Positions 32,335 to 64,000 of a DNA stretch of 64,000 nt are shown one piece after another. A program made the position numbers and the translations under genes. This stretch comes from Hyphomicrobiales bacterium (lineage in GTDB: Bacteria; Bacteroidota; Bacteroidia; Bacteroidales; JBGRPZ01). The first letter of the stretch is position 1, and every line of letters begins with the position of its first letter. The stretch covers positions 66,198 through 130,197 of the forward strand of contig JBGRPZ010000001.1 of assembly GCA_041725915.1 (NCBI GenBank), written 5' to 3'. The notes beneath the pieces were generated by a model. That model made no database searches and was not told the origin of the DNA. It saw only the letters and a list, made by a program, of their open reading frames with translations.

Positions 32335-32336
32335 AG

Positions 32337-32409
32337 TGATTGATCGGGGGCTCGAACCCCGGACCCTCTGCTTAAAAGGCAGATGCTCTACCAGCTGAGC
32401 TAATCAATC
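32337..32409 (-). tRNA. tRNA-Lys (anticodon UUU), copy 1
   Basis: GATTGATTAGCTCAGCTGGTAGAGCATCTGCCTTTTAAGCAGAGGGTCCGGGGTTCGAGCCCCCGATCAATCA. Canonical cloverleaf with anticodon loop CTTTTAA. Confidence 0.92.
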
Positions 32410-32423
32410 AAAAAGAAAAAAAG

Positions 32424-32496
32424 TGATTGATCGGGGGCTCGAACCCCGGACCCTCTGCTTAAAAGGCAGATGCTCTACCAGCTGAGCTAATCAATC
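32424..32496 (-). tRNA. tRNA-Lys (anticodon UUU), copy 2
   Basis: Sequence identical to copy 1, 87 nt away, separated by an A-rich spacer. Confidence 0.92.
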
Positions 32497-41214: not shown

Positions 41215-42732
41215 GTGAGTAATATCTTCGATCATACCTATTTCATTGTATTTATAGTTTATACAGCAATATTGTTTTTAGTTGCTTTTTTTACTTCACG
41301 AAAAGCAACAAATGAAACGTACTTTACAGGAAATCGTAAATCACCATGGTATTTGGTGGCTTATGGAATGATAGGGACATCCTTATCAGGAGTTACTTTT
41401 ATCTCTGTTCCTGGTTGGGTAGGCTCATCAGGCTTTTCATACATGTTGGTAGTTTTAGGTTATGTGGTAGGGTATTTAGTGATAATAGCTTTGTTATTAC
41501 CTGTATATTATAAACTAAAGCTCACATCAATATATTCATATTTAGATGAAAGGTTTGGGCGTTCAGCATACAAAACAGGCGCATCATTTTTCTTGTTAAG
41601 TCGATTTATTGGTGCTGCCTTCAGGATGTTTATAGTTGTGGAAATACTTCAGGTATTTGTGTTGAAGCAATGGAATGTTCCTTTTTATCTAGTAGTCTTA
41701 ATGTTCGTTGGTCTTATTCTTTTATATTCATTTAAAGGAGGTATTCGTACTATTGTATTTACAGACACTTTGCAAACCACCTTTATGCTATTGGCTGTAG
41801 TATTCACAATATACTTTATAAAGACTGATCTGAATGTAGACTTTAAACAAATATTCCAGATTGTAAGGGAAAGTGAGTTTTCAAAGATGGTTTATACAGA
41901 TGTATCATCAAAGCATCATTATCTTAAGCAGTTTTTTAGTGGCATCTTTATAGCTATTGTAATGACTGGTTTAGATCAGGATATGATGCAAAAGAATCTT
42001 ACTTGTAGATCTTTAAAGGATGCCCAGAAGAATGTGTTTTCTTTAAGTATTATTCTGGTATTTGTTAACTTTGTATTCCTAACATTAGGAGTTCTTTTAT
42101 TTCATTATGTAAACCATTTGGGCATTGAAATGCCTGCAAAGACAGATTATCTGTTTCCTAATATTGCTCTAAACTATCTTGGCCCTGTTGCAGCTTCTCT
42201 ATTTATTATAGGTTTAATCTCTGCTGCTTATTCTAGTGCTGATAGTGCTATAACAGCTCTTACTACTTCATTTACTGTTGATATACTGAATATAAAGAAA
42301 TGGAAAAGAAGTGATGAATATAAAAAGAAAGTAAGGATTATTTCTCATTTTTCAATTTCCTTTATTCTTGTAATTCTTATGATTGCCTTCAATTCAATCA
42401 ATGATGATGCCGTGATATCCAGTATCTTTACTATTGCAGGATATACTTATGGTCCATTGCTTGGTTTCTTCGCATTTGGTATACTTAGTAAGAAGCAAAC
42501 TATAGATAAATATCTTCCTATTGTAGGAATTTCTTCCCCAATATTATCATATATAATAAAAGAAATCAGTTATACTAGTTTCGGTTACTCATTTGGTTTT
42601 GAGCTTCTCATTCTCAATGGAGCTTTGACAGCATTTTTAATGTTATTATTAAGTTATAAACAACCCAAAAATAAAATTAATCAGGATTTAAATGAAAAAT
42701 TTCAGATTCAAAGCAATAGAGAAAGTATTTGA
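41215..42732 (+). CDS. Sodium:solute symporter family transporter
   Basis: 505 aa with about 13 TM helices and SSF-like blocks (GNRKSPWYLVAYGMIGTSLSG, FKGGIRTIVFTDTLQ). GTG start. The 3-prime end overlaps the GS-III start by 41 nt. Confidence 0.8.
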   Translation: MSNIFDHTYFIVFIVYTAILFLVAFFTSRKATNETYFTGNRKSPWYLVAYGMIGTSLSGVTFISVPGWVGSSGFSYMLVVLGYVVGYLVIIALLLPVYYKLKLTSIYSYLDERFGRSAYKTGASFFLLSRFIGAAFRMFIVVEILQVFVLKQWNVPFYLVVLMFVGLILLYSFKGGIRTIVFTDTLQTTFMLLAVVFTIYFIKTDLNVDFKQIFQIVRESEFSKMVYTDVSSKHHYLKQFFSGIFIAIVMTGLDQDMMQKNLTCRSLKDAQKNVFSLSIILVFVNFVFLTLGVLLFHYVNHLGIEMPAKTDYLFPNIALNYLGPVAASLFIIGLISAAYSSADSAITALTTSFTVDILNIKKWKRSDEYKKKVRIISHFSISFILVILMIAFNSINDDAVISSIFTIAGYTYGPLLGFFAFGILSKKQTIDKYLPIVGISSPILSYIIKEISYTSFGYSFGFELLILNGALTAFLMLLLSYKQPKNKINQDLNEKFQIQSNRESI

Positions 42733-44881
42733 TCGCAAGCCCATAGAGGTGGAATTTCCTTCTGTAAAAGCATCAGATTATTATGGTTCGATGACTTTTA
42801 ACCTTGATACAATGCAAGAGTATCTACCTAAAGAAGCTTATAAAGCAGTTTTGGAAGATATTGAAGAGGGTGTAAAGATTAAAAGAACTGTGATTGATCA
42901 AATAGCAGCAGCTATGAGATCATGGGCATTATCAAAAGGGGCTACTCATTATACACACTGGTTTCAACCACTTACCGGTGTTACAGCGGAGAAGCATGAC
43001 TCTTTTCTTAGTTTGCGTAATGATGGTAAACCTATAGTTGAGTTTTGTGGTAATTCACTAGTACAGCAAGAGCCTGATGCTTCCAGCTTTCCTAGTGGAG
43101 GTATTCGAAATACTTTTGAAGCCAGAGGTTATACAGCTTGGGATCCCACCTCCCCAGCATTTATAATTGATGGCACACTCTGTATACCAACGATTTTTGT
43201 TTCTTATACTGGAGAGTGTTTAGACTTTAAAACACCACTGATCAGATCTATAGAGGCTATTGATGTTGCAGCCGTTAAAGTTGCAAAACTTTTCAATCCA
43301 GAGATCAATAAGGTACGCCCAACATTGGGTTGGGAGCAAGAGTATTTTCTTGTTGATTCTGCTTTGTATTATGCCAGACCTGACTTGATGCTAATAGGAA
43401 AGACTGTATTTGGTCATTCTTCGGCGAAAGATCAGCAGCTTTCTGATCACTATTTTGGAGCTATTCATGAAAGAGCTGTAAACTTTATGAAGGAATTAGA
43501 GATAGAAGCCCATAAATTGGGTATTCCTCTAAAAACTCGACATAATGAGGTTGCTCCGGGACAGTTTGAATGTGCTCCAATATTTGAAGAGGCTAATGTT
43601 GCTAATGATCATAATCTATTGATTATGCATATTATTCCTAAAATAGCCAGAAAGCATAATTTTGTTGCACTACTTCATGAAAAGCCATACGCTGGAATTA
43701 ATGGCTCTGGTAAGCATAATAACTGGTCTTTGGCAGCTAATGGAACAACAAACTTACTTGTACCCGGAAAGACAGAGAATGAAAACCTAAGGTTTCTGGC
43801 TTTTATTACAGCTACATTGAAAGGGGTAAGTGATTATGAAGAGCTTCTTCGTGTAAGTATTGCCTCAGCAGGTAATGACTGTAGGCTTGGTGGTCATGAA
43901 GCACCTCCAGCGATAATGTCTGTTTTTATAGGATCACAATTGACAAGTGCATTAGAAGAAATTGAAAAGGCACATGATCGTGGAGATTTTATTTCTCAAC
44001 CTGAAGAAGATGCTAATCTTGATATTGCCATGATCCCTGAGATTCTGTTGGATAATACTGATAGAAACAGAACCTCACCTTTTGCTTTCACTGGTAATAA
44101 GTTTGAATTTAGAGCTGTTGGTTCTACGATGAACCCTGCCAGTCCAATGTTCGTACTTAATACTATTGTAGCTGAGGCCTTGGATGAGTTTTCTGATAAT
44201 GTGAATAAACTAATGCAAGATGATGTTTCTAAAGATGATGCTATCTTTGAAACTATTCGAAAGTTCAGTGTAGAATCCCGTAAGATAAGGTTTGAAGGAA
44301 ATAACTATAGCGATGAATGGGTAGAAGAAGCCAAGAAAAGAGGCCTGTCTAACCATAGTGATACTGTTGATTCAATGTATATTGTAAAAGAAGATTCTAC
44401 AATAGAAATATTCGAAAAATATAAAGTATTCACCAAGAGAGAATTGATGGCTAGATATGATATTATGGCTGAGTCTTATACGAAAAGTATTCAGATAGAA
44501 TCCCGAATAATGGGAGATTTAGCTTTGAATCATATTATTCCAACGGCGATTGAATATCAGAATACTCTTATTAAGAATGCTAAAGGACTTAAAGAAGTTC
44601 TTGATAATAAAACATTCTCTCAACTCTCAAAGAATCAAATTCAATCTATAAAAGATATTTCAGAGTATATATCTTCTATTAAAACGAATGTTGAGAGTAT
44701 GGTAGAAGAAAGGAAAAAAGCAAATCGACTTTTATCTGCAGAAGATAAGGCTAGAGCTTATGCAAAACAAGTAAAGCCATACTTTGATGCAATTAGATAT
44801 TACGTTGATAAATTAGAGCTTCAAGTAAACGATGAATTGTGGCCTTTGCCTAAGTACAGAGAATTACTATTCATGAAATAA
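42692..44881 (+). CDS. glnN: Glutamine synthetase, type III
   Basis: 729 aa, the characteristic GS-III length. The N-terminus MKNFRFKAIEKVFDRKPIEV..SDYYG and catalytic-domain blocks (NEVAPGQFE, HEKPYAGINGSGKHNNWS) fit the Bacteroides-type GS-III. Confidence 0.92.
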   Translation: MKNFRFKAIEKVFDRKPIEVEFPSVKASDYYGSMTFNLDTMQEYLPKEAYKAVLEDIEEGVKIKRTVIDQIAAAMRSWALSKGATHYTHWFQPLTGVTAEKHDSFLSLRNDGKPIVEFCGNSLVQQEPDASSFPSGGIRNTFEARGYTAWDPTSPAFIIDGTLCIPTIFVSYTGECLDFKTPLIRSIEAIDVAAVKVAKLFNPEINKVRPTLGWEQEYFLVDSALYYARPDLMLIGKTVFGHSSAKDQQLSDHYFGAIHERAVNFMKELEIEAHKLGIPLKTRHNEVAPGQFECAPIFEEANVANDHNLLIMHIIPKIARKHNFVALLHEKPYAGINGSGKHNNWSLAANGTTNLLVPGKTENENLRFLAFITATLKGVSDYEELLRVSIASAGNDCRLGGHEAPPAIMSVFIGSQLTSALEEIEKAHDRGDFISQPEEDANLDIAMIPEILLDNTDRNRTSPFAFTGNKFEFRAVGSTMNPASPMFVLNTIVAEALDEFSDNVNKLMQDDVSKDDAIFETIRKFSVESRKIRFEGNNYSDEWVEEAKKRGLSNHSDTVDSMYIVKEDSTIEIFEKYKVFTKRELMARYDIMAESYTKSIQIESRIMGDLALNHIIPTAIEYQNTLIKNAKGLKEVLDNKTFSQLSKNQIQSIKDISEYISSIKTNVESMVEERKKANRLLSAEDKARAYAKQVKPYFDAIRYYVDKLELQVNDELWPLPKYRELLFMK

Positions 44882-44888
44882 TATAATT

Positions 44889-44924
44889 AGGTGAGTGATT
44901 GTTTCGCTCACCTTTCTTTTTTTG
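44889..44924 (+). terminator. Terminator after the GS-III gene
   Basis: AGGTGAG-11 nt-CTCACCT followed by TTCTTTTTTTG. It lies inside the N-terminal extension of ORF-track call 44891. Confidence 0.7.
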
Positions 44925-44956
44925 TTTTTATTTTTGCCAAAATAAAATGTAATACA

Positions 44957-46123
44957 ATGCAAAGATTTCTATTATTTGACCTCAGAACAAGAATTGCTGG
45001 CTTAGGTTTATTATTTATGATCTTCCTAGTGTCTCCTGTATATTCTCAATATAAAGTTTATCCTATTAAATCTAAAGAAGCTAATAAACAGACATCAGGA
45101 CTGGTTTATGCTTTGCCAAAGAATCTATTGAAACTAGATGTTACTGTAAAAAAGAGTAGTTATATAAAAGGCCCTTATGCTGAATATGCCGCTGAATTGA
45201 TGGGCTTGAAAGATATTGTTAGGCGTGATTCTGATAAGTATGAGATTCTAAATGTAGAAATCAGTACTATTGCTGAACCAGATGAAAATCATTTATTCTT
45301 GGTTGTTCCGGATGATAGATATTCCAAAGAGAATAAAATTCTCTTTAATCTTACTAATAGTGGGATTCTGACTAGTTATGGTTCAAAAGCCGAGAATGAG
45401 AATAGCTCACAGTTTTTTGATAAGATTGATAGGATAAATGCTTTCTCTCAACTTCCATCGAATGGATTGACTGTAAAGAATGATTCTGTAATCAGACGAA
45501 TTGGTATTGGGAAGGATCAACAGGTTATAAGATCTTTTATGAAGACAATGACCTCAAATAACCCTGAAGCAAAGGCAAAAGAGATATCTCAGTTTATAGA
45601 TAATATCAGAGAGAGTCAGTTCAATCTTATTAGTGGATATCAAGAGGTGGGCTATGATGTAGGTACTGTAAAGTATATGAATGAAGAGTTGACAAAACTG
45701 CTTGATGATTATATCTCTTTGTTCAGAGGAAAAATAATCGAACAACAAAAGGTTTTTACTTTTTATGTAGAACCAAAAGATGGTGGAAAGACTGTTGCAT
45801 TTAAGTTTTCGGATAAACAAGGTGTTCTTGATGCCTCAACTTCAAAAGGACAAAGTGTGAATATTGATATTGATATGAGTACAGCTAATCAACTAAACTC
45901 TAATATTCCAGATAAGATAGGCTCTCAGGAAAAGAACCCTGGAGGATTTTATTATCGTGTTCCTGCTGTATGTAATGTCTCATTAAAGTTACCTTCTGGT
46001 TTATATGAGAATGAAAGAGTTATTATCTCACAATTTGGCAAGATAGTGCAAGCTCCAAATGCTTTTGGGAATGTTGAATTCCATCCAAATACAGGAAGTA
46101 TAAAGTCTATAGGCTCCAAATAG
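44957..46123 (+). CDS. Hypothetical secreted protein
   Basis: ATG 44957 gives MQRFLLFDLRTRIAGLGLLFMIFLVSPVYSQ (signal peptide). No motif recognised. Confidence 0.55.
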   Translation: MQRFLLFDLRTRIAGLGLLFMIFLVSPVYSQYKVYPIKSKEANKQTSGLVYALPKNLLKLDVTVKKSSYIKGPYAEYAAELMGLKDIVRRDSDKYEILNVEISTIAEPDENHLFLVVPDDRYSKENKILFNLTNSGILTSYGSKAENENSSQFFDKIDRINAFSQLPSNGLTVKNDSVIRRIGIGKDQQVIRSFMKTMTSNNPEAKAKEISQFIDNIRESQFNLISGYQEVGYDVGTVKYMNEELTKLLDDYISLFRGKIIEQQKVFTFYVEPKDGGKTVAFKFSDKQGVLDASTSKGQSVNIDIDMSTANQLNSNIPDKIGSQEKNPGGFYYRVPAVCNVSLKLPSGLYENERVIISQFGKIVQAPNAFGNVEFHPNTGSIKSIGSK

Positions 46124-54851: not shown

Positions 54852-55640
54852 GCTCTTTCTGGTTAATAAGTTTAACAATTAATTTATTATAAAATGACTA
54901 TGTCTAGTACACTCAAACCAAAAAAACCGGGAAATCCTCAAGGAATCATTCAGCACAAAATTTACGAAAGGAATCGTAAATTACATCTTATATGGATGCG
55001 TCCGGAAATAATCTGTATGGTAGGTATATTGCATCTACCAAAGCGATCGCTAAGTTATAAACTTATTTTTTTCTCGCAATGCTTATTCAGACTTTTTTTA
55101 ATTAAATGTTTTTTTATTTTATAACTGAATGATGAGCAGTGTACTTATGTAAAAACGTATAATTATACATGATAAATGTATTTCCCCTTTACCTTGGTGG
55201 AGTATTTTACTATAATTGATTCATAGACCATAGGAAGATGAATAAATATAGACCTTATATGCAATTCTGATCTTCGTATTGTTGTTGTTTATATGATTAT
55301 TTCTGCTGATATTTTTCCACCTTAAATATTTATCATTACATTTGTGATCACTATAGAACTATATTGAGAAAAATTGTTCATGTAGGGTTATAAATTCAGG
55401 TTCTTCTTTTTGGTTAACATGATTTTCTTGAACGAAGAGTCTGAATTTCCCTATTGATAAGTTGATGTTTCGGGGGTAAAGAATGAAAATTCATCAACGA
55501 TTGAATATTATCTCATAACTACTGAATATAAATACTCTTTTAATTGAATATTTACATGCTGCTTATTGAATTTTTATTCATCATCTATTGATTATTACTT
55601 ATCGCCTGTAACATAGTAGATCCTTTATGTTATAATATAT

Positions 55641-55909
55641 ATTCCCCTCTTTATAAACGTGATTTTTCCGCCTTGAGAATTTTGAGTTTCCGCCTTGAAG
55701 AAGTAAATTCTTCCCGTTGATAATCTTTGTTCGCCTCCTTAAGTTGGTGTAGTCTCCTCCTTAAGATGAGAGTCTGTCCCTTGATGAATACATATTTGTC
55801 CCTTGATGAACACATATTTGCCTTTTGATGCACCAAAACAAGGTCTATTTTGAATAAAAATTCATGTTTTGATGAATGAAGATGCGCTGTATTTTGAATA
55901 AAAATTCAT
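55641..55909. repeat. Degenerate tandem array, about 12 units in a 22-bp register
   Basis: TTGA/TTAA cores at 55673, 55695, 55717, 55739, 55761, 55781, 55803, 55825, 55850, 55869 and 55894, with a weaker unit at 55651. Neighbouring units are pairwise near-identical (tttccgccttga x2, ctcctccttaag x2, tgtcccttgatgaa x2, tattttgaataaaaattcat x2). Confidence 0.85.
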
Positions 55910-55940
55910 TGTTTATAAGATTTTATTATGTGTAATGACA

Positions 55941-55974
55941 TAAAAAAGACCATGCATAATAATTGCATGGTCTA
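55941..55974 (-). terminator. Terminator of the 56004..56417 gene
   Basis: 10-bp perfect stem agaccatgca / tgcatggtct, followed on the minus strand by TTTTTTA. Confidence 0.8.
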
Positions 55975-56003
55975 TATGAAAGAGATTCCAAATGAAATCT
56001 ATT

Positions 56004-56417
56004 CTAAGCCTCTTGCTTAGCTGCCTCAGCAAAGGCTTTATCTAATTCAGCAGTTAGATTGACATGTGAATTTCTTTTCCCACTTAAAGTTTTGTCGATA
56101 AGGGTTTTGGAGACGAATAATTTTTTTGCAGTTATCTTGACATGAAAACTTAGTTCTGTATCTGTACATTTCCATTTTGATAAATTGGCTTCAACAGTAA
56201 TTCCATGAACAGTTTTCTTTTCATGCATATTCCCACTTAGGTCTATATTGATACTTCCACCTCCTTTGTTGGTTTTTACAATTGCAGTTGTAGGGAAGAC
56301 GTTGGTGCCATTATCATGAACAATTAGTTCAGCAGTTCCTGAAATAATACCTAGAACTGAAAAATTTTCTTTATGATCGATAATTATTGGCAGTCCATTA
56401 TTTTCTTTGCTCATCAT
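56004..56417 (-). CDS. Hypothetical protein (137 aa, no signal peptide)
   Basis: Clean ORF with its own terminator. No recognisable motif. Confidence 0.5.
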   Translation of the reverse strand: MMSKENNGLPIIIDHKENFSVLGIISGTAELIVHDNGTNVFPTTAIVKTNKGGGSINIDLSGNMHEKKTVHGITVEANLSKWKCTDTELSFHVKITAKKLFVSKTLIDKTLSGKRNSHVNLTAELDKAFAEAAKQEA

Positions 56418-56787
56418 TCTAAAATTTTGATATTTAATGTTAATGTTATTTTTCGGTAAAATTATAGTGATATATGATAGAGGGATAGCGTAAGAGTGCT
56501 TGTTTGATAGATGTAGGAAATCTCTGTTTATAGTATAAGCAGTATTACTATAGAGTTTGTTTTTATAAGAATAAATACCTGAATAATTATTTATACAAAG
56601 AGCTTATTTAAAAGCGATAAAAACTTTTTATAGCTTGATATTGATTTCTGTCTAATCTACTTTTTATTACCTTTGCCTCCTTTCATTAAGTAGCTTACAA
56701 TAAGATGATTTTATTCGTTTTAGATAAAGGATTTATCTTATAATAAGATGATAAGCAATATATAATAGGCTAAATAATAATCACAAA

Positions 56788-57957
56788 ATGGGCAAAATAA
56801 GAGTTAAGCTTTTAACTTTCAAGGGAGCTGGTGAATCAGTTCTCAATATGGGGAAAGAAAAGGTATACAAGATCTTTGGTAAAAGTTATGTTAAGTTTGT
56901 TGATGAGCATCCGGAAGTATTATATTTTGTTACTGGTGGTTCTGAAGAAGAAGCGTTACGTGTAGTAGAGCGCAGAGGTCGTAGATTTTATCTTCTTCTT
57001 GCAGACAGTGAGCATAATGCTTATGCTTCAGCAACAGAAGTAAAAGCATGGTTAAATCAAAATATTGTAAGAGCTAGATTGCTTCAGATTGGCGTTGATG
57101 GTAGTGATTCTCTGATTAAGAGCTACTTCAATGTAAGAAAAGCATTTTGGAAGCTTCAAAATACAAAGATTGGATTGTTTGGGAAACCTTCTGATTGGTT
57201 AGTAGCTTCTACAATTCCTTTTGGCAGATTGAAAGATTGGTTGGGAATAACTCTTCAACAAATTGATTGGAGTGATTTTAACCCTGAAGATTACCCACAG
57301 GATGAAAAATTCCTTTCTAAATTCCAACCTAAATGTAGTGGAGACCTTGGCACAACTTCCGCTGTCTCTCAATTTATGATGGATCAGATTAAGCTACATA
57401 AGCTTGATGCAATTACTGTTGAGTGCTTCCCTATGGTTCAGGAAAAAGGAATTACTGCTTGTCTTCCTCTTTCTTTATTGAATGATAATGGTGTTCCTGC
57501 AGGTTGTGAAGGTGATATTACTGCTATCACAGGTATGATGATAGGTCAGGCTCTTACTGGTAGTATTCCTTGGATGGCTAATACTGTTGAGATAGATAAG
57601 AAACGTTCTTTGTTTGCTCATTGTACTATTGGCACAAACATGTTGAATGATTATAATATCACTACTCATTTTGAAACAGGTAAAGGTACTGCTATTCAAG
57701 GTGACTTTAAACATAGAGAAGTGACTATCTTCCGTGTGAACAGAAACCTTGAAAGAGGATTTGTTACAAACGCAATGATTACTCATACTCCTAAGTTAGA
57801 TACTGCTTGTAGAACTCAGGTAAAAGTACAAATGCCTGAAAAGGCTGTTGAAACTTTAAGAGATCAGCCTTTAGGGAATCATCATCTTTTCCTTCCTGGT
57901 GATCATGTTGAAGAAATTAAAATGGCTTTTGAACTTCTTGGTATGGAGATCGTTTAA
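56788..57957 (+). CDS. L-fucose/L-arabinose isomerase-family-like protein (predicted sugar isomerase)
   Basis: 389 aa. GVPAGCEGDITAITGMMIG and FAHCTIG blocks resemble the catalytic-domain pattern of fucose-isomerase-like proteins. From memory, not verified. Confidence 0.4.
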   Translation: MGKIRVKLLTFKGAGESVLNMGKEKVYKIFGKSYVKFVDEHPEVLYFVTGGSEEEALRVVERRGRRFYLLLADSEHNAYASATEVKAWLNQNIVRARLLQIGVDGSDSLIKSYFNVRKAFWKLQNTKIGLFGKPSDWLVASTIPFGRLKDWLGITLQQIDWSDFNPEDYPQDEKFLSKFQPKCSGDLGTTSAVSQFMMDQIKLHKLDAITVECFPMVQEKGITACLPLSLLNDNGVPAGCEGDITAITGMMIGQALTGSIPWMANTVEIDKKRSLFAHCTIGTNMLNDYNITTHFETGKGTAIQGDFKHREVTIFRVNRNLERGFVTNAMITHTPKLDTACRTQVKVQMPEKAVETLRDQPLGNHHLFLPGDHVEEIKMAFELLGMEIV

Positions 57958-57969
57958 AAAAAGATATTT

Positions 57970-58006
57970 AGTATAGGTAAAAGAAACTTTACCTATACTT
58001 TTTTTC
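57970..58006 (+). terminator. Terminator after the isomerase-like gene
   Basis: 12-bp perfect stem agtataggtaaa / tttacctatact followed by TTTTTTCC. Confidence 0.85.
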
Positions 58007-58028
58007 CTTTTTCTATACTGCTATTGTT

Positions 58029-58673
58029 TTGAGTAGATATATATATAAGTTGATTGCTGAAGGTGAGCATCAACGTCAGGATTTTAAGTTTCAGATCAGT
58101 GATAGTAAAAAGATAGCAAGGACTCTTGTTGCTTTTGCAAACACTGATGGAGGTAAGTTATTGATTGGAGTTAAGGATAATGGAGTTGTGGCAGGTATAC
58201 GTTCTGCTGAAGAAATGTATATGATAGAAGCCGCAGGAGATATGTATTGCCGTCCTAAGGTTGAAACTACTATCAAAGAATGGAATATTGATGGTAAGAT
58301 GGTGCTTGAAGTGGATGTTAAAAGGAGTAATGAATTACATTCTGCACCGTCCAAGGAAGGTAAATATATGGTGTTTGTTCGTGTGAAAGATCAAAATATT
58401 ATGGCTAATGCCGTTCTTGTTGAAGCCCGTCGCAAGAAAAATAGTAAGTATGGTGTAAGTATCTCATATAACGAAACACAACAAACATTGATGTCTTACC
58501 TTAATGATCATGAAGAAATTACTTTGAATGAATTCGCTTCTCTGACTTCAATTTCTCGTTATAAGGCTAAAAGAATACTTGTCGACCTGCTGGCTACTAA
58601 TATTATTGAGATACATCTTACTGAAAATTCGGCAACATATAGTATCAACAAAGATTACTTTTCAGAAGAATAA
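58029..58673 (+). CDS. AlbA_2 / Schlafen-like divergent-AAA domain protein with a C-terminal wHTH-like region
   Basis: GEHQRQDFKFQISDSKKIARTLVAFANTDGGKLLIGVKDNGVVAGI is the typical AlbA_2-domain N-terminal pattern. TTG start; there is no nearby ATG. Confidence 0.65.
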   Translation: MSRYIYKLIAEGEHQRQDFKFQISDSKKIARTLVAFANTDGGKLLIGVKDNGVVAGIRSAEEMYMIEAAGDMYCRPKVETTIKEWNIDGKMVLEVDVKRSNELHSAPSKEGKYMVFVRVKDQNIMANAVLVEARRKKNSKYGVSISYNETQQTLMSYLNDHEEITLNEFASLTSISRYKAKRILVDLLATNIIEIHLTENSATYSINKDYFSEE

Positions 58674-58703: not shown

Positions 58704-60242
58704 ATGAATAAAAAGAATAGAATGCATTATAATGATATAGGTGTTGAACAGATATTTGATGCCTTGAGTGTTGATAATGATCATTTGTTGACTGATGATC
58801 TTTGGAAGATCCTTGCTGATAATGGCATTCAAGAGAATGATCCCCGATTTCTACAGATAAGAGAGTTCCTTTGTGGTGATAACCCACGACATCAGTGCGC
58901 TTCTATAAACTTTGATGCATTCAATCAGGTGATTTCACAAAGCAACTTGCTGAGAAAAAGCCTTACGGGTCAGCTTGTTGTTCCTGATTTCAAATCATTC
59001 TCTTCGTCTTTTGCTTCAATCTATGAGCAAACAAAGAAGAATGTAGGAGGCAAAGTGGCTGATTATATTCCTCAGTTGGCACGTGTAAATCCTGATTATT
59101 ATGCTGTTTCCGTATGTACAATCGATGGACAAAGATATGCATTGGGAGATGTTTCTGTTCCATTCTGTTTTCAGTCGACATGTAAACCTATATTATATTG
59201 TATGGCTCAGGAGGATTATGGTGCTGATAATGTCCATAATCATGTTGGCTATGAGCCTAGTGGCCTTGGATTCAATGAACTGAATTTGGATAGAAACCAG
59301 AAACCCCACAATCCAATGATAAATGCAGGGGCTATCATGTGTTCTTCTCTGATTAAACGCAAACTTGATCTCCCTGATAAGTTTGATGCAGTGTTGAATA
59401 CAATTAAAGACCTTGGTGCTACAGACAATATCAACTTCAATAATGCTGTTTACCTTTCCGAGCGTCAAACTGCTGATCGTAACTTTGCTCTTGCATATTA
59501 TATGCGTGAGAATAAGGCTTTCCCCCCAAATACAGATATAATCGAAGCTCTTGATTTTTACTTTCAATGTTGCTCTATAGAAGTGAATGCCGTAGATATG
59601 TCTGTTATTGGTGCTACCTTGGCTAATGGTGGTATCAACCCATTTACAGAAAAGAAAGTGTTTGCAAATAATACTGTCCAGAATTGCATGTCTTTGATGT
59701 ACTCTTGTGGGATGTATGATTACAGCGGAGAATTTGCATTTAAGATTGGATTGCCTGCAAAGTCTGGTGTGTCGGGGGCATTGCTTGTTGTTATTCCTGA
59801 TCTTATGGGCATCTGCATTTGGTCGCCTCGTTTAGATCAGATAGGAAATAGTGTCAGAGGTATTGAATTTTGTCAGGAGCTTGCCAATAGATATAACATA
59901 CATAAATTCGATGCTCTTGCCGGTGAGACTGACCGCCGAAACCCTAAAGCCCAGAAATTTGATGACTCTAGCAAAGGTTTCCTTTCATTGATAGAAAGTG
60001 CCAGCCGTGGGGATCTTGTTGAACTCAAACGCCTGATGGCTTCAGGTGTTGATATTAATGCCAAGAACTATGATGGCCGTACTGCACTGCATCTTGCCTG
60101 TGCCGAAGGACAAACAGAAGTAGTACAATTCCTTATCGAAAACAATGTTGAGGTGGATATTAAAGACCGCTGGGGACATACTCCATTGTCAGAAGCTGAA
60201 ATAGGTGGATTCCTCGAGATTGTAAGGCTGTTGAGGGGGTAG
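58704..60242 (+). CDS. glsA: Glutaminase, metazoan GLS-like architecture (EF-hand-like N-terminal domain + glutaminase + ankyrin repeats)
   Basis: QSTCKPILYCMA, KPHNPMINAGAIM, SCGMYDYSGEFAFKIGLPAKSGVSG and IWSPRLDQIGNSVRG glutaminase blocks. The C-terminus YDGRTALHLACAEGQTEVVQFLIENNVEVDIKDRWGHTPL is ankyrin-like. Confidence 0.9.
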   Translation: MNKKNRMHYNDIGVEQIFDALSVDNDHLLTDDLWKILADNGIQENDPRFLQIREFLCGDNPRHQCASINFDAFNQVISQSNLLRKSLTGQLVVPDFKSFSSSFASIYEQTKKNVGGKVADYIPQLARVNPDYYAVSVCTIDGQRYALGDVSVPFCFQSTCKPILYCMAQEDYGADNVHNHVGYEPSGLGFNELNLDRNQKPHNPMINAGAIMCSSLIKRKLDLPDKFDAVLNTIKDLGATDNINFNNAVYLSERQTADRNFALAYYMRENKAFPPNTDIIEALDFYFQCCSIEVNAVDMSVIGATLANGGINPFTEKKVFANNTVQNCMSLMYSCGMYDYSGEFAFKIGLPAKSGVSGALLVVIPDLMGICIWSPRLDQIGNSVRGIEFCQELANRYNIHKFDALAGETDRRNPKAQKFDDSSKGFLSLIESASRGDLVELKRLMASGVDINAKNYDGRTALHLACAEGQTEVVQFLIENNVEVDIKDRWGHTPLSEAEIGGFLEIVRLLRG

Positions 60243-60332
60243 GTGTAATTAAGTGTATATTTTGTTTCCGCATTTGAATAAGATTACATCTTATCCACTA
60301 ATCAAATTAAGATAAGACCAATATAAAATAAT

Positions 60333-60340
60333 TACCTTTG
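60333..60340 (+). promoter_or_regulatory. Candidate -7 promoter box (TAnnTTTG) upstream of the ATPase gene
   Basis: TACCTTTG, 40 nt before the ATG at 60380. No properly spaced -33 TTTG was seen. Confidence 0.25.
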
Positions 60341-60379
60341 AAAAGGTGATGTCAATAAACATTATAATCCTACATAATA

Positions 60380-62215
60380 ATGAAAATAAATAAGATTCAT
60401 ATAAAGAACTTTCGAAGTATTCAAGATTTATCGTTTGAATTTTCTGATAATTTGAATGTTTTTGTTGGTGCTAATGGGGCAGGAAAAACTACTGTGTTAG
60501 AGGCTATTTCTATATCATTATCATGGATGATGAATAGAATAAGGAATATGAATTCTAATGGAGCTTCAATTACTGATTTGGATATTCGATACAATACTGA
60601 CTATTCTATGATTGAGGGTTTATATGAGGCCGATAAACAAGAATATAAATGGAAACATATCAAAGTAGCAGAAGGTAAAAGTATAAAAGAAAAATCTTCT
60701 TACACAGGTGCTACCGAATTGGCTGAAGTATTTCAATCAAAACTTAATGATAATAAGGAATTACCTGTAATAGCCTACTATCCAGTAACCCGAACAGTCG
60801 AAGACGCTGATGCAAGCATAAAAGGTAATGAAAAATTATCGCGGTTAGACCTATATGATGATGCTTTAAAGGGAAAAAGTAATTATCAAAGCTTTTTTAA
60901 GTGGTATAGACTACAAGATGATATTAATAATGAGCAATTACTTGCAGAGAGGAATTGGTTTGAGGAGAATAAGCAAGTAAGAAATAAATTTTTAGCTAAT
61001 TTGAATCTTAAAATAAACGAGTATTTAAAGAAGAAGGGCATTGCTTTAGGAAGATATGATAAATTATTACATCATTATTCTGATTATATGTTTAATGCCA
61101 TGACTTTAAGGTCTTTCTTGGATCAATTGAGCTTGTTATATCATTCGATTAGTATTGAGTTAGGTGCAAATAGAATTCATTTTATTGAAGATGCAATAAT
61201 GTCTTATTATGCTTTAAAGAATGTAGGGAATAAGATCGTATCTTACATGAAGTCTGAAGATGACATTAATTTATTCATAAATGAAATAACATCTGTTATT
61301 TTATTTAAAGATGATTTGAGTAAGCTTAATGAACTTGATAAAGATTCATGTTGCATTATTCTTGACTTTTATTATTTAATAATAGATAATGCTTTGCCTT
61401 GGATATCTAAGGATGGAAAAGAAAAGCTGTATAATTATTTGAAAGATTTGCTTAGTTTAAAAGAAAGCAATCAGCAACGACAGTTTACTATTAGATTTAT
61501 AGAATTAGTAAAAAATGAACTTGTCTCAAGGGAAAGAAGTCTTCAATCATCAAATTCAGAGGTAAATACTTTTATCAAAAAAACCATAGAATCTTTTCTT
61601 CCAAACTATAAGAATCTTCAAGTAAAGCGTATTCCATACCCTCATTTATCAATAGATAAAGGTGAGAATTCTTTTAATGTTGGGCAACTCTCTGATGGAG
61701 AGAAAAATTTGATCACCTTAATTGCAGATATTGCTAGGAGACTAATAATCGCAAATACATATAGTGAGAATCCTTTAAAAGGGAATGGAATTATCCTTAT
61801 TGATGAAGTGGAACTTCATTTACACCCTAAATGGCAAAGAAAAGTGATTCCACAATTATTAAAAACTTTCCCAAATTGCCAGTTTTTCATCACAACACAT
61901 TCCCCGCAGGTTGTAAGTCATGTTCAGCCAGATTCATTATTCCTGCTTAGTAATAATGACAATGTTTTGTCTGTATCAGAAATGGATGAATCTTATGGAA
62001 TGAATACAGATAGAGTTTTGGAAGACATCTTTGCTACTGATGCTCGCCCTAAGGAAATAAAAGGTCGCTTTAAAGAACTTTACAGGTTGATTGATGCAGG
62101 TGAATATGATAAGGCAAGGTCTGAACACGAAAGTTTATCCCGGATTATTTCCGGAGATGATGAGTTAAGTTACATTAATGTTTTAATTGACCGAAAAAGG
62201 CTTTTGGGGAAATGA
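60380..62215 (+). CDS. ptuA: ABC/AAA_15-21-type ATPase, Septu PtuA-like
   Basis: Walker A GANGAGKTT (aa 30-38), signature-like LSDGEKNLITL, Walker B ILIDEVELHLHP, H-loop TTHSPQV. A long helical insertion lies between the N- and C-terminal ATPase lobes. No TOPRIM domain follows. Confidence 0.7.
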   Translation: MKINKIHIKNFRSIQDLSFEFSDNLNVFVGANGAGKTTVLEAISISLSWMMNRIRNMNSNGASITDLDIRYNTDYSMIEGLYEADKQEYKWKHIKVAEGKSIKEKSSYTGATELAEVFQSKLNDNKELPVIAYYPVTRTVEDADASIKGNEKLSRLDLYDDALKGKSNYQSFFKWYRLQDDINNEQLLAERNWFEENKQVRNKFLANLNLKINEYLKKKGIALGRYDKLLHHYSDYMFNAMTLRSFLDQLSLLYHSISIELGANRIHFIEDAIMSYYALKNVGNKIVSYMKSEDDINLFINEITSVILFKDDLSKLNELDKDSCCIILDFYYLIIDNALPWISKDGKEKLYNYLKDLLSLKESNQQRQFTIRFIELVKNELVSRERSLQSSNSEVNTFIKKTIESFLPNYKNLQVKRIPYPHLSIDKGENSFNVGQLSDGEKNLITLIADIARRLIIANTYSENPLKGNGIILIDEVELHLHPKWQRKVIPQLLKTFPNCQFFITTHSPQVVSHVQPDSLFLLSNNDNVLSVSEMDESYGMNTDRVLEDIFATDARPKEIKGRFKELYRLIDAGEYDKARSEHESLSRIISGDDELSYINVLIDRKRLLGK

Positions 62216-62862
62216 AATATATCAAAAAAGGAGTAGAACCAGAATTCTTAAAGAACAAAAAGGAAAAACTTGATAAGAATGCTAGTTATGATGATTTAGG
62301 GAGAAAGATAAAAAAGCTCTTGCGAGAACATTTAAAGGCTGAACAAGGAGAAATATGTTGCTATTGTGAACGAAGACTGCATACAAAAGATGATAATAGC
62401 AAAGATTATCATAATGAACACATAAAACCTAAAGATAGAGAGTTGTACCCACATTTAGCAACAGACTATTACAATATTGTATGTTCTTGCCAAGGTAATT
62501 TGAAGAAGGCAGAGATAAGCCATTGTGGGAAAGCAAAGGATAATTGGTATGATGAGCAATTATTTGTTTCCCCGCTCTCAAAAGATTGTGAAAGTAAATT
62601 TAGATATAATGATGGAGGAGAAGTATTTGCTGTAGATGGTAATAAAGCTGCTAAAACCACTATTGAGAAACTAAATCTTAATTGTGATAAGTTAATCGAG
62701 ATGAGAAAAATGGTTTTGAAAGTCTTTTATGAAGAAGAATTATCTTTGGAAGAGTTGATAAGGCTTGTGAAAGATGTTCTAAAAGAGAAAGGAAATAACA
62801 AAGGTAAGTATCAAGAATTCTACACTACAATAAAGTATCTTTTCGGAAAATATATCGAATGA
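62212..62862 (+). CDS. ptuB: HNH endonuclease (TIGR02646-like), Septu PtuB-like
   Basis: CCYCERRL...DYHNEHIKPK...YYNIVCSCQG...HCGKAKDN is an HNH/His-Me finger pattern. The ATG overlaps the ATPase stop by 4 nt (ATGA), indicating translational coupling. Confidence 0.7.
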   Translation: MKYIKKGVEPEFLKNKKEKLDKNASYDDLGRKIKKLLREHLKAEQGEICCYCERRLHTKDDNSKDYHNEHIKPKDRELYPHLATDYYNIVCSCQGNLKKAEISHCGKAKDNWYDEQLFVSPLSKDCESKFRYNDGGEVFAVDGNKAAKTTIEKLNLNCDKLIEMRKMVLKVFYEEELSLEELIRLVKDVLKEKGNNKGKYQEFYTTIKYLFGKYIE

Positions 62863-63031
62863 TTTTATGTAAATCATGACTTGAATTATAGGCGATTAAA
62901 TATTCAAACTAAATACTTGTTGATTTGATATGATACCTTTTCTTAAAGATTTTGATTCTCAATAGTTATAATGGTTCTGTTTTCTATAGTGTCAGATGGA
63001 GATATGTAATGTTTAAATTTTTATATTTTAT

Positions 63032-63391
63032 ATGGAGAAAGCTTTTAACAAGTTATTAAAGGGTACAATTAAATCAGCACAAAAGACCTATAAAGCAGAG
63101 AAGAGAATCGATAGAATGTTAACCTTTGGTTTTTCTGTAGATGGGATTATCGAAATACTAAAAAAGGATGAATACACGGGGTATGATATTCTGGAATGTT
63201 TAGATTCTATTATCTTTCAGGATAAAATTACAGATAATACAACATATCATTCTCTTTGTGGTACGAAAGAAGATTGGTTAATTGAATCTTTGAAGAGGAG
63301 TTATAATAATGTTTTAGAACTTGAGTGCTCTGATAGTGAATTACGAAGTGTTTTAGCTGATTTTTCAGGAAAGGTCTTTAAATTGTTTTAA
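63032..63391 (+). CDS. Hypothetical small acidic protein (119 aa)
   Basis: Clean ORF 170 nt downstream of the HNH gene. No motif recognised. Confidence 0.4.
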   Translation: MEKAFNKLLKGTIKSAQKTYKAEKRIDRMLTFGFSVDGIIEILKKDEYTGYDILECLDSIIFQDKITDNTTYHSLCGTKEDWLIESLKRSYNNVLELECSDSELRSVLADFSGKVFKLF

Positions 63392-63656
63392 TATTATTGA
63401 TGATTATCTAAAGATTAAGATACGTTTAAAACTGTCTTTTGTTCTAGTCATAACTGAGTTTGTTCGGTGAGGACTAAGAGCAAATACTTTTTCAATTATG
63501 TAGAAGTTTATCTGCTTTTCCTATTTGAGATCTTGTCTAAGTTCACAAAATGAACTTCCCATCTGTAATTTGTTTCTTTCTATAGGAGTCTTTATGATTT
63601 ACAAAAACAATAGAGCTTTTTTTGTCGTTAAGTCCTGAAAAGTTACTAAGGCGAAT

Positions 63657-64000
63657 ATGAAATTACATTTATTGAAACAAGGAATCAACCGGGAGGTGAT
63701 GAATCTGGCGATACCTAATATCGTCAATAATATAACTGTACCTCTTGTAGGTATTGTGGACTTAGCATTGATGGGACATCTAAGTTCTGTAAAGTATCTT
63801 GATGCTGTAGCTTTAGGTGCTTTGATCTTCAATTTTATATATTCAGGGCTTTCTTTCTTACGTATGGGTACTACAGGTATGACAGCTCAGGATTATGGAG
63901 CTGGAAATAAGAAGGAAGTGATTTTACATCTTACCCGGGCTTTAGCTGTTGCTATGGGCTTGGCACTGGTGATCTTTTTATTGCAAGATCCAATTGCATG
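63657..64000 (+). CDS. MATE-family efflux transporter (N-terminal part; runs off the window)
   Basis: Not in the ORF track because no stop falls in the window. Translation MKLHLLKQGINREVMNLAIPNIVNNITVPLVGIVDLALMGHL...MGTTGMTAQDYGAGN is the typical MATE N-terminus. The 63599..63832 minus ORF is its shadow. Confidence 0.75.
   Translation, partial: MKLHLLKQGINREVMNLAIPNIVNNITVPLVGIVDLALMGHLSSVKYLDAVALGALIFNFIYSGLSFLRMGTTGMTAQDYGAGNKKEVILHLTRALAVAMGLALVIFLLQDPIA

What the first reader, a model, noticed from the sequence alone, without database searches (positions are those of the whole stretch)
60380..62862. Translationally coupled ATPase + HNH nuclease cassette with Septu (PtuA/PtuB) architecture
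The 611-aa protein has a split ABC-type ATPase head: Walker A GANGAGKTT, LSDGEKN signature, Walker B LIDEVELHLHP and TTHSPQV. A roughly 270-aa helical insertion separates the lobes, and there is no TOPRIM or helicase domain. The next gene starts inside the ATPase stop codon (ATGA) and encodes a 216-aa Cys/His-rich HNH protein (CCYCE...HNEHIKPK...CSCQG). ATPase + TIGR02646-like HNH is the defining gene pair of the Septu anti-phage system. The same pair serves as the effector module of some retrons, but no reverse transcriptase or msr/msd-like structure is visible here. The pair sits among non-core-looking genes (AlbA_2-like, ankyrin-glutaminase, orphan ORFs), which is consistent with a small defence patch. 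I could not judge whether the long middle insertion of the ATPase is typical or a divergent subtype.
Basis: partly seen in the sequence, partly recalled or inferred. Interest (0 to 1): 0.7.

Follow-up and report, generated by a model that had tools for sequence, protein, structure and literature searches.

The report
Stand-alone Septu anti-phage gene pair
These two overlapping genes are an ordinary member of the known Septu anti-phage system (PtuA ATPase plus PtuB HNH nuclease), inserted between two housekeeping genes; the only unusual feature is a large, fast-evolving helical insert in the ATPase.

Summary

Both proteins match Septu models strongly: PADLOC PtuA at E=5.5e-133 and PtuB at E=2e-57, and TIGR02646 above its cutoff. 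The nearest solved structures are all PtuA or PtuB.

The pair is stand-alone type I Septu, not a retron effector:
- No reverse transcriptase lies beside it.
- PtuA has no retron-type N-terminal domain.
- NCBIfam's retron Ec78 equivalog cutoffs are missed.
- A tree built on the ATPase head places it among stand-alone PtuAs.

The long middle segment is a ~190-aa all-helical insert (aa 186-378) at the site where retron PtuAs carry a 56-aa coiled coil. It defines a single, populous, mainly Bacteroidota clade of PtuAs about 600-640 aa long. In this copy the insert is about 14% identical to its clade-mates, against 50-58% for the ATPase lobes. It has no match among 1.84 billion representative proteins or in the PDB.

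Two relatives have the glutaminase gene directly followed by the MatE gene. PtuA, PtuB and an orphan 119-aa ORF therefore form a ~3.4-kb insertion here.

No other defence gene was found nearby. This is a new member of a known kind, of low to moderate interest.

The parts
60380..62215 (+). ptuA: 611-aa ABC/SMC-type ATPase of Septu, long form
   Evidence: PADLOC PtuA PDLC00271 E=5.5e-133. Pfam AAA_15, AAA_21, AAA_23 and SMC_N. Best PDB matches are PtuA chains 9e8z, 9kjx and 8ee4. Foldseek top 50 are all PtuA.
60380..60934 (+). PtuA N-lobe (aa 1-185), with Walker A G30-T37 (K36, N32). The first methionine aligns to residue 61-62 of retron Ec83 PtuA, so there is no retron-type N-terminal domain.
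   Evidence: This is the first start codon after an in-frame stop.
60935..61513 (+). About 190-aa all-helical insertion (aa 186-378) at the IS2/coiled-coil site of the ABC head. It is the hallmark of the long-PtuA clade and is hyper-divergent here.
   Evidence: Absent from 415-480-aa PtuAs. Its length is conserved at 186-203 aa, but identity to clade-mates is 14.5%. aa 186-358 match only the protein itself in 1.84e9 representatives. No PDB fold match below E=0.24. No PHROG hit.
61514..61999 (+). PtuA C-lobe (aa 379-540): signature LSDGEKN 437-443, Walker B D475/E476, H480/H482, H-loop H507
   Evidence: Invariant columns. 57.7% identity to clade-mates. The residues correspond to Eco7 E396, H400 and H402 (PMC12673091).
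62000..62215 (+). PtuA C-terminal three-helix domain (aa 541-611), inferred to be the claw that clamps PtuB
   Evidence: Model helices H558-572, H576-589 and H594-610. The conserved terminal motif is shown. The role is inferred from the Eco7 and Septu structures (PMC12673091, PMC12819146).
62212..62215 (+). ATGA start/stop overlap (translational coupling)
   Evidence: The same -4 nt overlap occurs in 47 of 75 PtuA-PtuB loci.
62212..62862 (+). ptuB: 216-aa HNH nuclease (TIGR02646 family). Catalytic H70 and N88; Cys cluster C49, C52, C93, C105.
   Evidence: PADLOC PtuB PDLC00332 E=2e-57. TIGR02646 90 bits against a cutoff of 52. PDB PtuB 22bv E=3e-8. Invariant residues in 71 PtuBs.
63032..63391 (+). 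Orphan 119-aa ORF co-inserted with ptuAB. There is no evidence that it belongs to the system.
   Evidence: No homologue in 5.8e9 proteins. No Pfam, PADLOC or PHROG hit. Absent from 83 other PtuAB loci.
60243..63656 (.). About 3.4-kb segment inserted between the glutaminase-ankyrin gene (58704-60242) and the MatE gene (from 63657)
   Evidence: L084 and L086 have glutaminase (62-63% identity) directly followed by MatE (69-74% identity), separated by 150-205 bp. No flanking repeats mark the edges.

Best explanation
This is a stand-alone (type I) Septu anti-phage system.

**Shown here.** A PtuA-family ABC/SMC ATPase and a PtuB-family HNH nuclease are encoded as a translationally coupled pair. All catalytic residues are intact. 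The pair sits on a ~3.4-kb segment inserted between two conserved chromosomal genes.

**Inferred from characterised Septu and retron-PtuAB systems.** PtuA forms head-to-head nucleotide-bound dimers. Their C-terminal three-helix claws clamp the C-terminal domain of one PtuB, and the dimers assemble into a higher-order oligomer that keeps the nuclease silent. E. coli Septu is inhibited by ATP. Infection relieves this inhibition. PtuB (H70, N88) then cuts nucleic acid and the infection aborts. [quoted passage not shown]

**Specific to this copy.** PtuA belongs to a monophyletic long-form clade, mainly in Bacteroidota. These proteins carry a ~190-aa helical domain at the IS2 site, where retron PtuAs have a 56-aa coiled coil that mediates dimer-dimer contacts. 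I infer that this domain sets the oligomeric state and/or senses the trigger. Its very fast divergence fits that reading but does not prove it.
For: **Family membership**
- PADLOC PtuA 5.5e-133 and PtuB 2e-57.
- TIGR02646 above its cutoff.
- PDB sequence matches are only PtuA/PtuB, then more distant ABC ATPases.
- The AF2 model (pLDDT 77.5) matches PtuA chains at E=1e-26 to 1e-17.
- Catalytic residues are invariant.
- The -4 nt overlap and PtuA-then-PtuB order are shared with most of 75 loci.

**Stand-alone status**
- No RT among the neighbouring ORFs and no RT-like motif in the window.
- No Rfam hit.
- No N-terminal domain in PtuA.
- Long-form relatives L081 and L082 also have no RT within 7 kb. 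L082 sits beside DrmE/helicase genes and a transposase.
- In the head-only tree, all 37 long forms are monophyletic and nest inside stand-alone short PtuAs, away from retron Ec83.

**Accessory status**
- Glutaminase and MatE are adjacent in L084 and L086.
- The nearest PtuA relative is only 44% identical.

**Mechanism, from papers**
- PMC12819146, PMC12673091, PMC12640716, PMC12475279 and PMC13096335.
Against: - No experiment exists for this locus or for any long-form PtuA, so defence activity, trigger and substrate are inferred.
- The closest solved structures by sequence and by fold are retron-associated PtuAs (Ec83 3e-62, against E. coli Septu 2e-40). This may only reflect which structures have been solved.
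- The insert model has moderate confidence (pLDDT 55-80).
- The window ends 1.1 kb after PtuB's neighbour, so a partner further downstream cannot be excluded.
- The tree has no bootstrap support, and its outgroup is a fragment.
Confidence: 0.85

Rival explanations
1. This is the effector module of a type I-A retron (Septu type II). Its RT and ncRNA are either encoded elsewhere or were lost, leaving an orphaned PtuAB.
For: - PADLOC retron models also score well: ATPase_I-A 2.5e-115 and HNH_I-A 1.2e-37.
- NCBIfam's best names are retron Ec78 PtuA and PtuB.
- The top PDB and Foldseek matches are retron Ec83 and Eco7 PtuA.
- PtuA has an insert at the site of the retron coiled coil.
- The source record itself calls PtuB a 'retron system putative HNH endonuclease'.
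Against: - In Septu type II the RT gene precedes ptuA (PMC8565338). Here the preceding gene is a glutaminase, and no ORF of 110 aa or more from 50.5 kb to the window end is an RT.
- No YxDD...VTG ORF occurs in the 64-kb window.
- No Rfam match even at E<=1.
- PtuA lacks the N-terminal domain that contacts RT-msDNA (PMC12673091, PMC12819146).
- NCBIfam equivalog cutoffs are missed: 354 against 500, and 111 against 150.
- Long-form relatives are RT-free.
- The head-only tree nests the clade in stand-alone Septu.
Confidence: 0.05
2. This is a decaying or non-functional Septu remnant. The scrambled insert would reflect relaxed constraint rather than adaptation, and the pair would no longer defend.
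For: - The insert is only 14.5% identical to clade-mates, which are 33.8% identical to each other.
- Motifs nearly invariant in the clade (YEEPRFLFHE, DLEYMFHKM) are lost.
- The query sits on a long branch.
Against: - Both ORFs are intact and the coupling overlap is kept.
- All catalytic and Zn-cluster residues are conserved.
- The ATPase lobes are 50-58% identical to relatives.
- The insert keeps its length, its helical prediction and the anchoring W341/S343 motif.
Confidence: 0.07
3. This is a housekeeping or repair-type ATPase-nuclease pair (RecF/Rad50-like ABC ATPase plus HNH) unrelated to phage defence.
For: Weaker N-terminal matches to RecF, Rad50 and RecN.
Against: - Those matches cover only the Walker A region and lie far below the cutoffs.
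- The pair is absent from the syntenic site in relatives.
- The family distribution is patchy and partly island-associated.
Confidence: 0.03

Closest known systems
Septu type I (stand-alone PtuA/PtuB; E. coli Septu, PDB 8EE4/8EE7/8EEA; Septu EcB88)
   Same: - Two-gene PtuA-then-PtuB operon with no RT.
- ABC ATPase head with all nucleotide-binding motifs.
- C-terminal three-helix domain in PtuA.
- TIGR02646-type HNH in PtuB, of the same length class.
- PADLOC Septu models give the best hits.
- The head-only tree places this PtuA inside stand-alone PtuAs.
   Different: - E. coli Septu PtuA (465 aa) 'lacks a CC domain' (PMC12673091). This PtuA has a ~190-aa helical domain at that site.
- Sequence similarity to 8EE4 is modest (E=2e-40, head only).
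- The host is a low-GC Bacteroidota-like MAG, not Escherichia or Bacillus.
Type I-A retron effectors (Retron-Eco7/Ec78, Retron-Eco4/Ec83; also called Septu type II)
   Same: - Homologous PtuA and PtuB. These are the best PDB and Foldseek matches.
- Both have an insertion at the IS2 site.
- Same catalytic residues (N32, E476, H480 and H482 correspond to Eco7 N95, E396, H400 and H402).
- PtuB is the same length as Eco7 PtuB (216 aa).
   Different: - No RT, no ncRNA and no PtuA N-terminal domain.
- The insert is about 190 aa and multi-helical, not a 56-aa two-helix coiled coil.
- NCBIfam equivalog cutoffs are not met.
Short-form stand-alone PtuAs (415-480 aa; cyanobacteria, archaea, gammaproteobacteria; PADLOC PDLC00271)
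   Same: - Closest relatives of the ATPase head outside the long clade: 42-49% identity on the best segment, and sister to the long clade in the tree.
- Same PtuB partner and the same -4 nt overlap.
   Different: They have only about 10-20 residues where this protein has about 190.

Membership tests
Septu type I (PtuA + PtuB) | PtuA-family ABC/SMC ATPase | tested here: met
   PADLOC PtuA E=5.5e-133 plus more than 20 further PtuA models. PDB and Foldseek matches to PtuA chains.
Septu type I (PtuA + PtuB) | PtuB-family HNH nuclease (TIGR02646) | tested here: met
   PADLOC PtuB E=2e-57. TIGR02646 90 bits against a cutoff of 52.15. PDB PtuB 22bv E=3e-8.
Septu type I (PtuA + PtuB) | Adjacent, co-oriented genes with ptuA upstream of ptuB | tested here: met
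   4-nt ATGA overlap, as in 47 of 75 compared loci.
Septu type I (PtuA + PtuB) | Intact Walker A/B, signature and H-loop motifs, and intact HNH catalytic His/Asn (required for defence in Septu EcB88, PMC13096335) | tested here: met
   K36, D475, E476, H507 and S438-E441 are invariant. H70, N88, C49, C52, C93 and C105 are invariant in 71 PtuBs.
Septu type I (PtuA + PtuB) | No associated reverse transcriptase | tested here: met
   Pfam scan of all neighbours of 110 aa or more found no RVT. The motif scan of the window was negative.
Septu type I (PtuA + PtuB) | PtuA oligomer clamps PtuB through the C-terminal domains | not testable with these tools
   No multimer prediction is available. The three C-terminal helices are present in the model.
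Septu type I (PtuA + PtuB) | Protects against phage | not testable with these tools
   Needs an experiment.
Type I-A retron / Septu type II | RT gene immediately preceding ptuA (PMC8565338) | tested here: not met
   The preceding gene is a glutaminase with ankyrin repeats. No RT-like ORF in the window.
Type I-A retron / Septu type II | msr/msd ncRNA | tested here: inconclusive
   No Rfam match at the gathering threshold or at E<=1. Rfam may not cover type I-A retron ncRNAs.
Type I-A retron / Septu type II | PtuA N-terminal domain or extension contacting RT-msDNA (Eco7 residues 1-63) | tested here: not met
   Query residue 2 aligns to Ec83 PtuA residue 62. The ORF cannot extend upstream.
Type I-A retron / Septu type II | NCBIfam equivalog score for retron Ec78 PtuA and PtuB | tested here: not met
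   354 bits against a cutoff of 500, and 111 against 150.
Gabija / OLD-family and PARIS (AriA/AriB) | TOPRIM nuclease domain or partner on an ABC ATPase | tested here: not met
   No TOPRIM in Pfam. AriA and GajA match only weakly. The partner is an HNH protein.

The most novel reading that the evidence does not exclude
The ~190-aa helical IS2 domain of long-form PtuA would be a hypervariable trigger-sensing or oligomer-switching module. It would define a mechanistically distinct, mainly Bacteroidota Septu subtype with no solved-structure counterpart. The copy here, with an insert unrecognisable by sequence even to its clade-mates, would be a re-specified sensor produced by an arms race.
Probability: 0.3. 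Interest if true: 0.5.

Novelty: new member of a known kind. Interest (0 to 1): 0.25.

Why it matters
The finding adds little on its own, because it is a correctly recognisable Septu type I pair.

Two points may be useful to defence-system researchers:
- All structural work so far is on E. coli PtuAs that have either no domain or a small coiled coil at the IS2 site. A large, monophyletic clade with a ~190-aa helical domain at that site is structurally unexplored. That site governs dimer-dimer assembly in retron PtuA, so the clade could show how stand-alone Septu is switched on.
- The insertion between glutaminase and MatE is a clean, minimal example of Septu arriving at a site as a 3.4-kb cassette, with no recognisable mobility genes or repeats.

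Tried and rejected
1. **Exact look-up of the PtuA protein and of P0030.** No contigs were on record. The source was identified through cluster look-up instead.
2. **Genome-contig scan.** It was still useful for length and overlap statistics.
3. **Insert alone (aa 186-358) against 1.84e9 representatives.** Only the protein itself matched. PHROGs gave nothing. Foldseek of an insert-only model gave nothing below E=0.24.
4. **ORF119.** No homologue anywhere, so I rejected it as a third Septu component.
5. **Flanking direct or inverted repeats that would mark a mobile element.** Only chance-level short matches in AT-rich DNA.
6. **Sigma-70 promoter and terminator scan.** Counts equal the shuffled expectation, so it is uninformative. 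Bacteroidota promoters are not covered.
7. **Regex scan for retron RT.** Negative, but it had no positive control, so I treat it only as supporting evidence.
8. **The Li et al. 2024 Septu structure paper (PMC12318543).** Not held in the library. Its content is cited only second-hand, through later papers.
9. **'Defence patch' idea.** No PADLOC defence hit in AlbA_2, the 389-aa ORF, the 137-aa ORF, ORF119 or the small ORFs.
Full report
**Observation**

The window holds two ORFs: 60380..62215 (+, 611 aa) and 62212..62862 (+, 216 aa). The second ATG lies inside the first gene's stop codon (ATGA).
- PtuA: GANGAGKTT (K36), LSDGEKN (437-443), LIDEVELHLHP (D475, E476, H480, H482) and TTHSPQV (H507).
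- PtuB: CCYCE, HNEHIKPK and CSCQG.

In an alignment with 31 homologues the ATPase residues are invariant. In 71 PtuB sequences C49, Y51, C52, E69, H70, N88, C93 and C105 are invariant or nearly so. H70, not H67, aligns with the catalytic H57 of Retron-Eco7 PtuB (PMC12673091).

**Family assignment**

- PADLOC gives PtuA at E=5.5e-133 and PtuB at E=2e-57, with dozens of further PtuA and PtuB models.
- Pfam sees only generic AAA_15, AAA_21, AAA_23 and SMC_N domains, with no TOPRIM or helicase.
- NCBIfam's TIGR02646 passes its cutoff (90 bits against 52). The retron Ec78 PtuA and PtuB equivalogs do not (354 against 500; 111 against 150).
- By sequence, the only strong solved-structure relatives are PtuA and PtuB chains: Ec83 3e-62, Eco7 about 5e-46, E. 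coli Septu 8EE4 2e-40, and PtuB 22bv 3e-8.
- An AlphaFold2 model (pLDDT 77.5) matches the same PtuA chains at Foldseek E=1e-26 to 1e-17.

**Stand-alone or retron-linked?**

Retron type I-A models also score well, and the source record names PtuB a 'retron system putative HNH endonuclease'. I therefore tested the defining retron features.

- *RT gene.* In Septu type II the RT gene precedes ptuA (PMC8565338). Here the preceding gene is a glutaminase with ankyrin repeats. No ORF of 110 aa or more between 50.5 kb and the window end has an RT domain. A YxDD...VTG motif scan of all six frames of the 64-kb window is negative, though that scan had no positive control.
- *ncRNA.* Rfam finds only three tRNAs in the window. 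It finds nothing at E<=1 in 60-64 kb.
- *PtuA N-terminal domain.* Retron PtuAs carry an N-terminal domain that contacts RT-msDNA (PMC12673091, PMC12819146). Query residue 2 aligns with Ec83 residue 62, and the ORF cannot be extended upstream.
- *Relatives.* Long-form relatives in other genomes (L081; L082 from Tenacibaculum maritimum) have PtuA plus a ~200-aa overlapping ORF and no RT within 7 kb. L082 lies beside DrmE/helicase genes and a transposase.

This is type I, stand-alone Septu.

**The long middle segment**

Across 83 PtuA loci the lengths are bimodal. Most are 415-480 aa, and a minority are 597-624 aa. All of the best 120 database hits are about 570-640 aa, and they come mostly from Bacteroidota: Flavobacterium, Aquimarina, Tenacibaculum, Paludibacter and Mucilaginibacter.

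Aligning long and short forms places a ~190-aa insertion (query aa 186-378) between two conserved elements: the FFxWxRxQDDxxNE motif and the helix that precedes the signature motif. This is the IS2 site of SMC-type ATPases (PMC12475279). At that site Retron-Eco7 PtuA has a 56-aa two-helix coiled coil that mediates dimer-dimer contacts, and E. coli Septu PtuA has none (PMC12673091).

A neighbour-joining tree on 409 head-only columns makes all 37 long forms monophyletic. They nest within stand-alone short PtuAs and sit far from retron Ec83. The tree has no bootstrap support. The long middle is therefore typical of a populous subclade, not an oddity of this gene.

The state of the insert in this copy is unusual.
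- Its length (193 aa) and its helical prediction are conserved.
- It is 14.5% identical to clade-mates, which are 33.8% identical among themselves. The ATPase lobes are 50-58% identical.
- Clade-wide motifs such as YEEPRFLFHE and DLEYMFHKM are gone. Only the W341/S343 anchor remains.
- aa 186-358 alone match nothing but the protein itself among 1.84 billion representatives. No PHROG matches.
- An insert-only model (pLDDT 69.8, ten helices) has no PDB match better than E=0.24.

**Genomic setting**

All neighbouring proteins are singletons at 90% identity, and the record is an NCBI MAG. The closest glutaminase-ankyrin homologues are 62-63% identical. In two of them, L084 (a Bacteroidales MAG) and L086, glutaminase is followed directly by a MatE gene after 150-205 bp. 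Those MatE proteins are 69-74% identical to the MatE fragment that starts at 63657 here.

PtuA, PtuB and an orphan 119-aa ORF (60243-63656) are therefore an insertion at this site. The ORF has no homologue anywhere and is absent from the other PtuAB loci. No flanking repeats or mobility genes mark the edges. None of the other neighbours matches a PADLOC defence protein, so a wider 'defence patch' is not supported.

**Mechanism**

*Shown here:* family membership, intact catalytic sites, translational coupling and accessory status.

*Inferred from characterised systems:*
- PtuA forms nucleotide-bound head-to-head dimers.
- Oligomerisation and ATP binding hold the nuclease in check.
- Infection releases the nuclease, and infection aborts.

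E. coli Septu forms a 6:2 PtuA:PtuB complex whose DNA nicking or degradation is inhibited by ATP (reported in PMC12640716, PMC12673091 and PMC12819146, citing Li et al. 2024). [quoted passage not shown] Which substrate applies here is unknown.

Because the insert occupies the site that governs dimer-dimer assembly in retron PtuA, I infer that it sets the oligomeric state or senses the trigger. Its rapid divergence fits this reading but does not prove it.

**Rivals**

| Rival | Confidence | Main reason for rejection |
|---|---|---|
| Orphaned retron effector | 0.05 | The defining retron features tested are not met or not found |
| Decaying remnant | 0.07 | ORFs, catalytic sites and the coupling overlap are intact |
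| Repair-type ATPase-nuclease pair | 0.03 | Weak partial matches only, and the pair is absent from the syntenic site |

**Verdict**

This is a new member of a known kind: Septu type I, long-PtuA subclade. Interest is low to moderate (0.25). The most novel reading still open is that the long-form IS2 domain is a hypervariable sensor or assembly module defining a distinct Septu subtype (probability about 0.3).

Noticed in passing
whole window; e.g. 10450-12894 (-), 42692-44881 (+), 44891-46123 (+): The source record is labelled 'Hyphomicrobiales bacterium' (Alphaproteobacteria), but the window looks like Bacteroidota. GC is about 32%. It encodes a SusC-like TonB receptor with a CarboxypepD_reg domain, a type III glutamine synthetase and a DUF4831 protein. 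The closest homologues of PtuA, glutaminase and MatE are all from Bacteroidota. The taxonomic label or the binning of the MAG is probably wrong.
   Followed up: partly
58704-60242 (+): The glutaminase has the eukaryotic kidney-type architecture (EF-hand_14 + Glutaminase + ankyrin repeats). This architecture is widespread in Bacteroidota, Cyanobacteria and Myxococcota, and protist transcriptome proteins rank among the top hits. In L085 it sits next to glnA, amtB and P-II genes.
   Followed up: partly
63032-63391 (+): A 119-aa ORF was co-inserted with ptuAB. It has no homologue in 5.8 billion proteins and no family hit. It could be a spurious ORF, a lineage-specific gene or cargo of the inserted segment.
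   Followed up: yes
54879-56003: A ~1.1-kb stretch of 29% GC between the 458-aa gene and the 137-aa ORF holds only 61-76-aa ORFs and has no Rfam match at the gathering threshold. It may be a decayed gene or a non-coding region. I did not examine it further.
   Followed up: no
56004-58673: Three genes upstream of the glutaminase have no counterpart in the syntenic relatives L084 and L086, which carry YceI and GSHPx genes there instead. The three are a 137-aa orphan, a 389-aa protein with no Pfam family, and an AlbA_2/Schlafen-like protein with a C-terminal HTH. This is a second variable segment of unknown function. AlbA_2 weakly matches a phage DNA-helicase PHROG.
   Followed up: partly
32336-32496 (-): Two tandem tRNA-Lys(UUU) genes lie 14 nt apart and score identically in Rfam (71.3 bits each).
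   Followed up: no
L082: 11517-15839: In Tenacibaculum maritimum the long-form Septu pair lies next to an IS3-type transposase and DrmE_C/helicase (DISARM-like) genes. There, unlike in this window, it is part of a real defence island.
   Followed up: no
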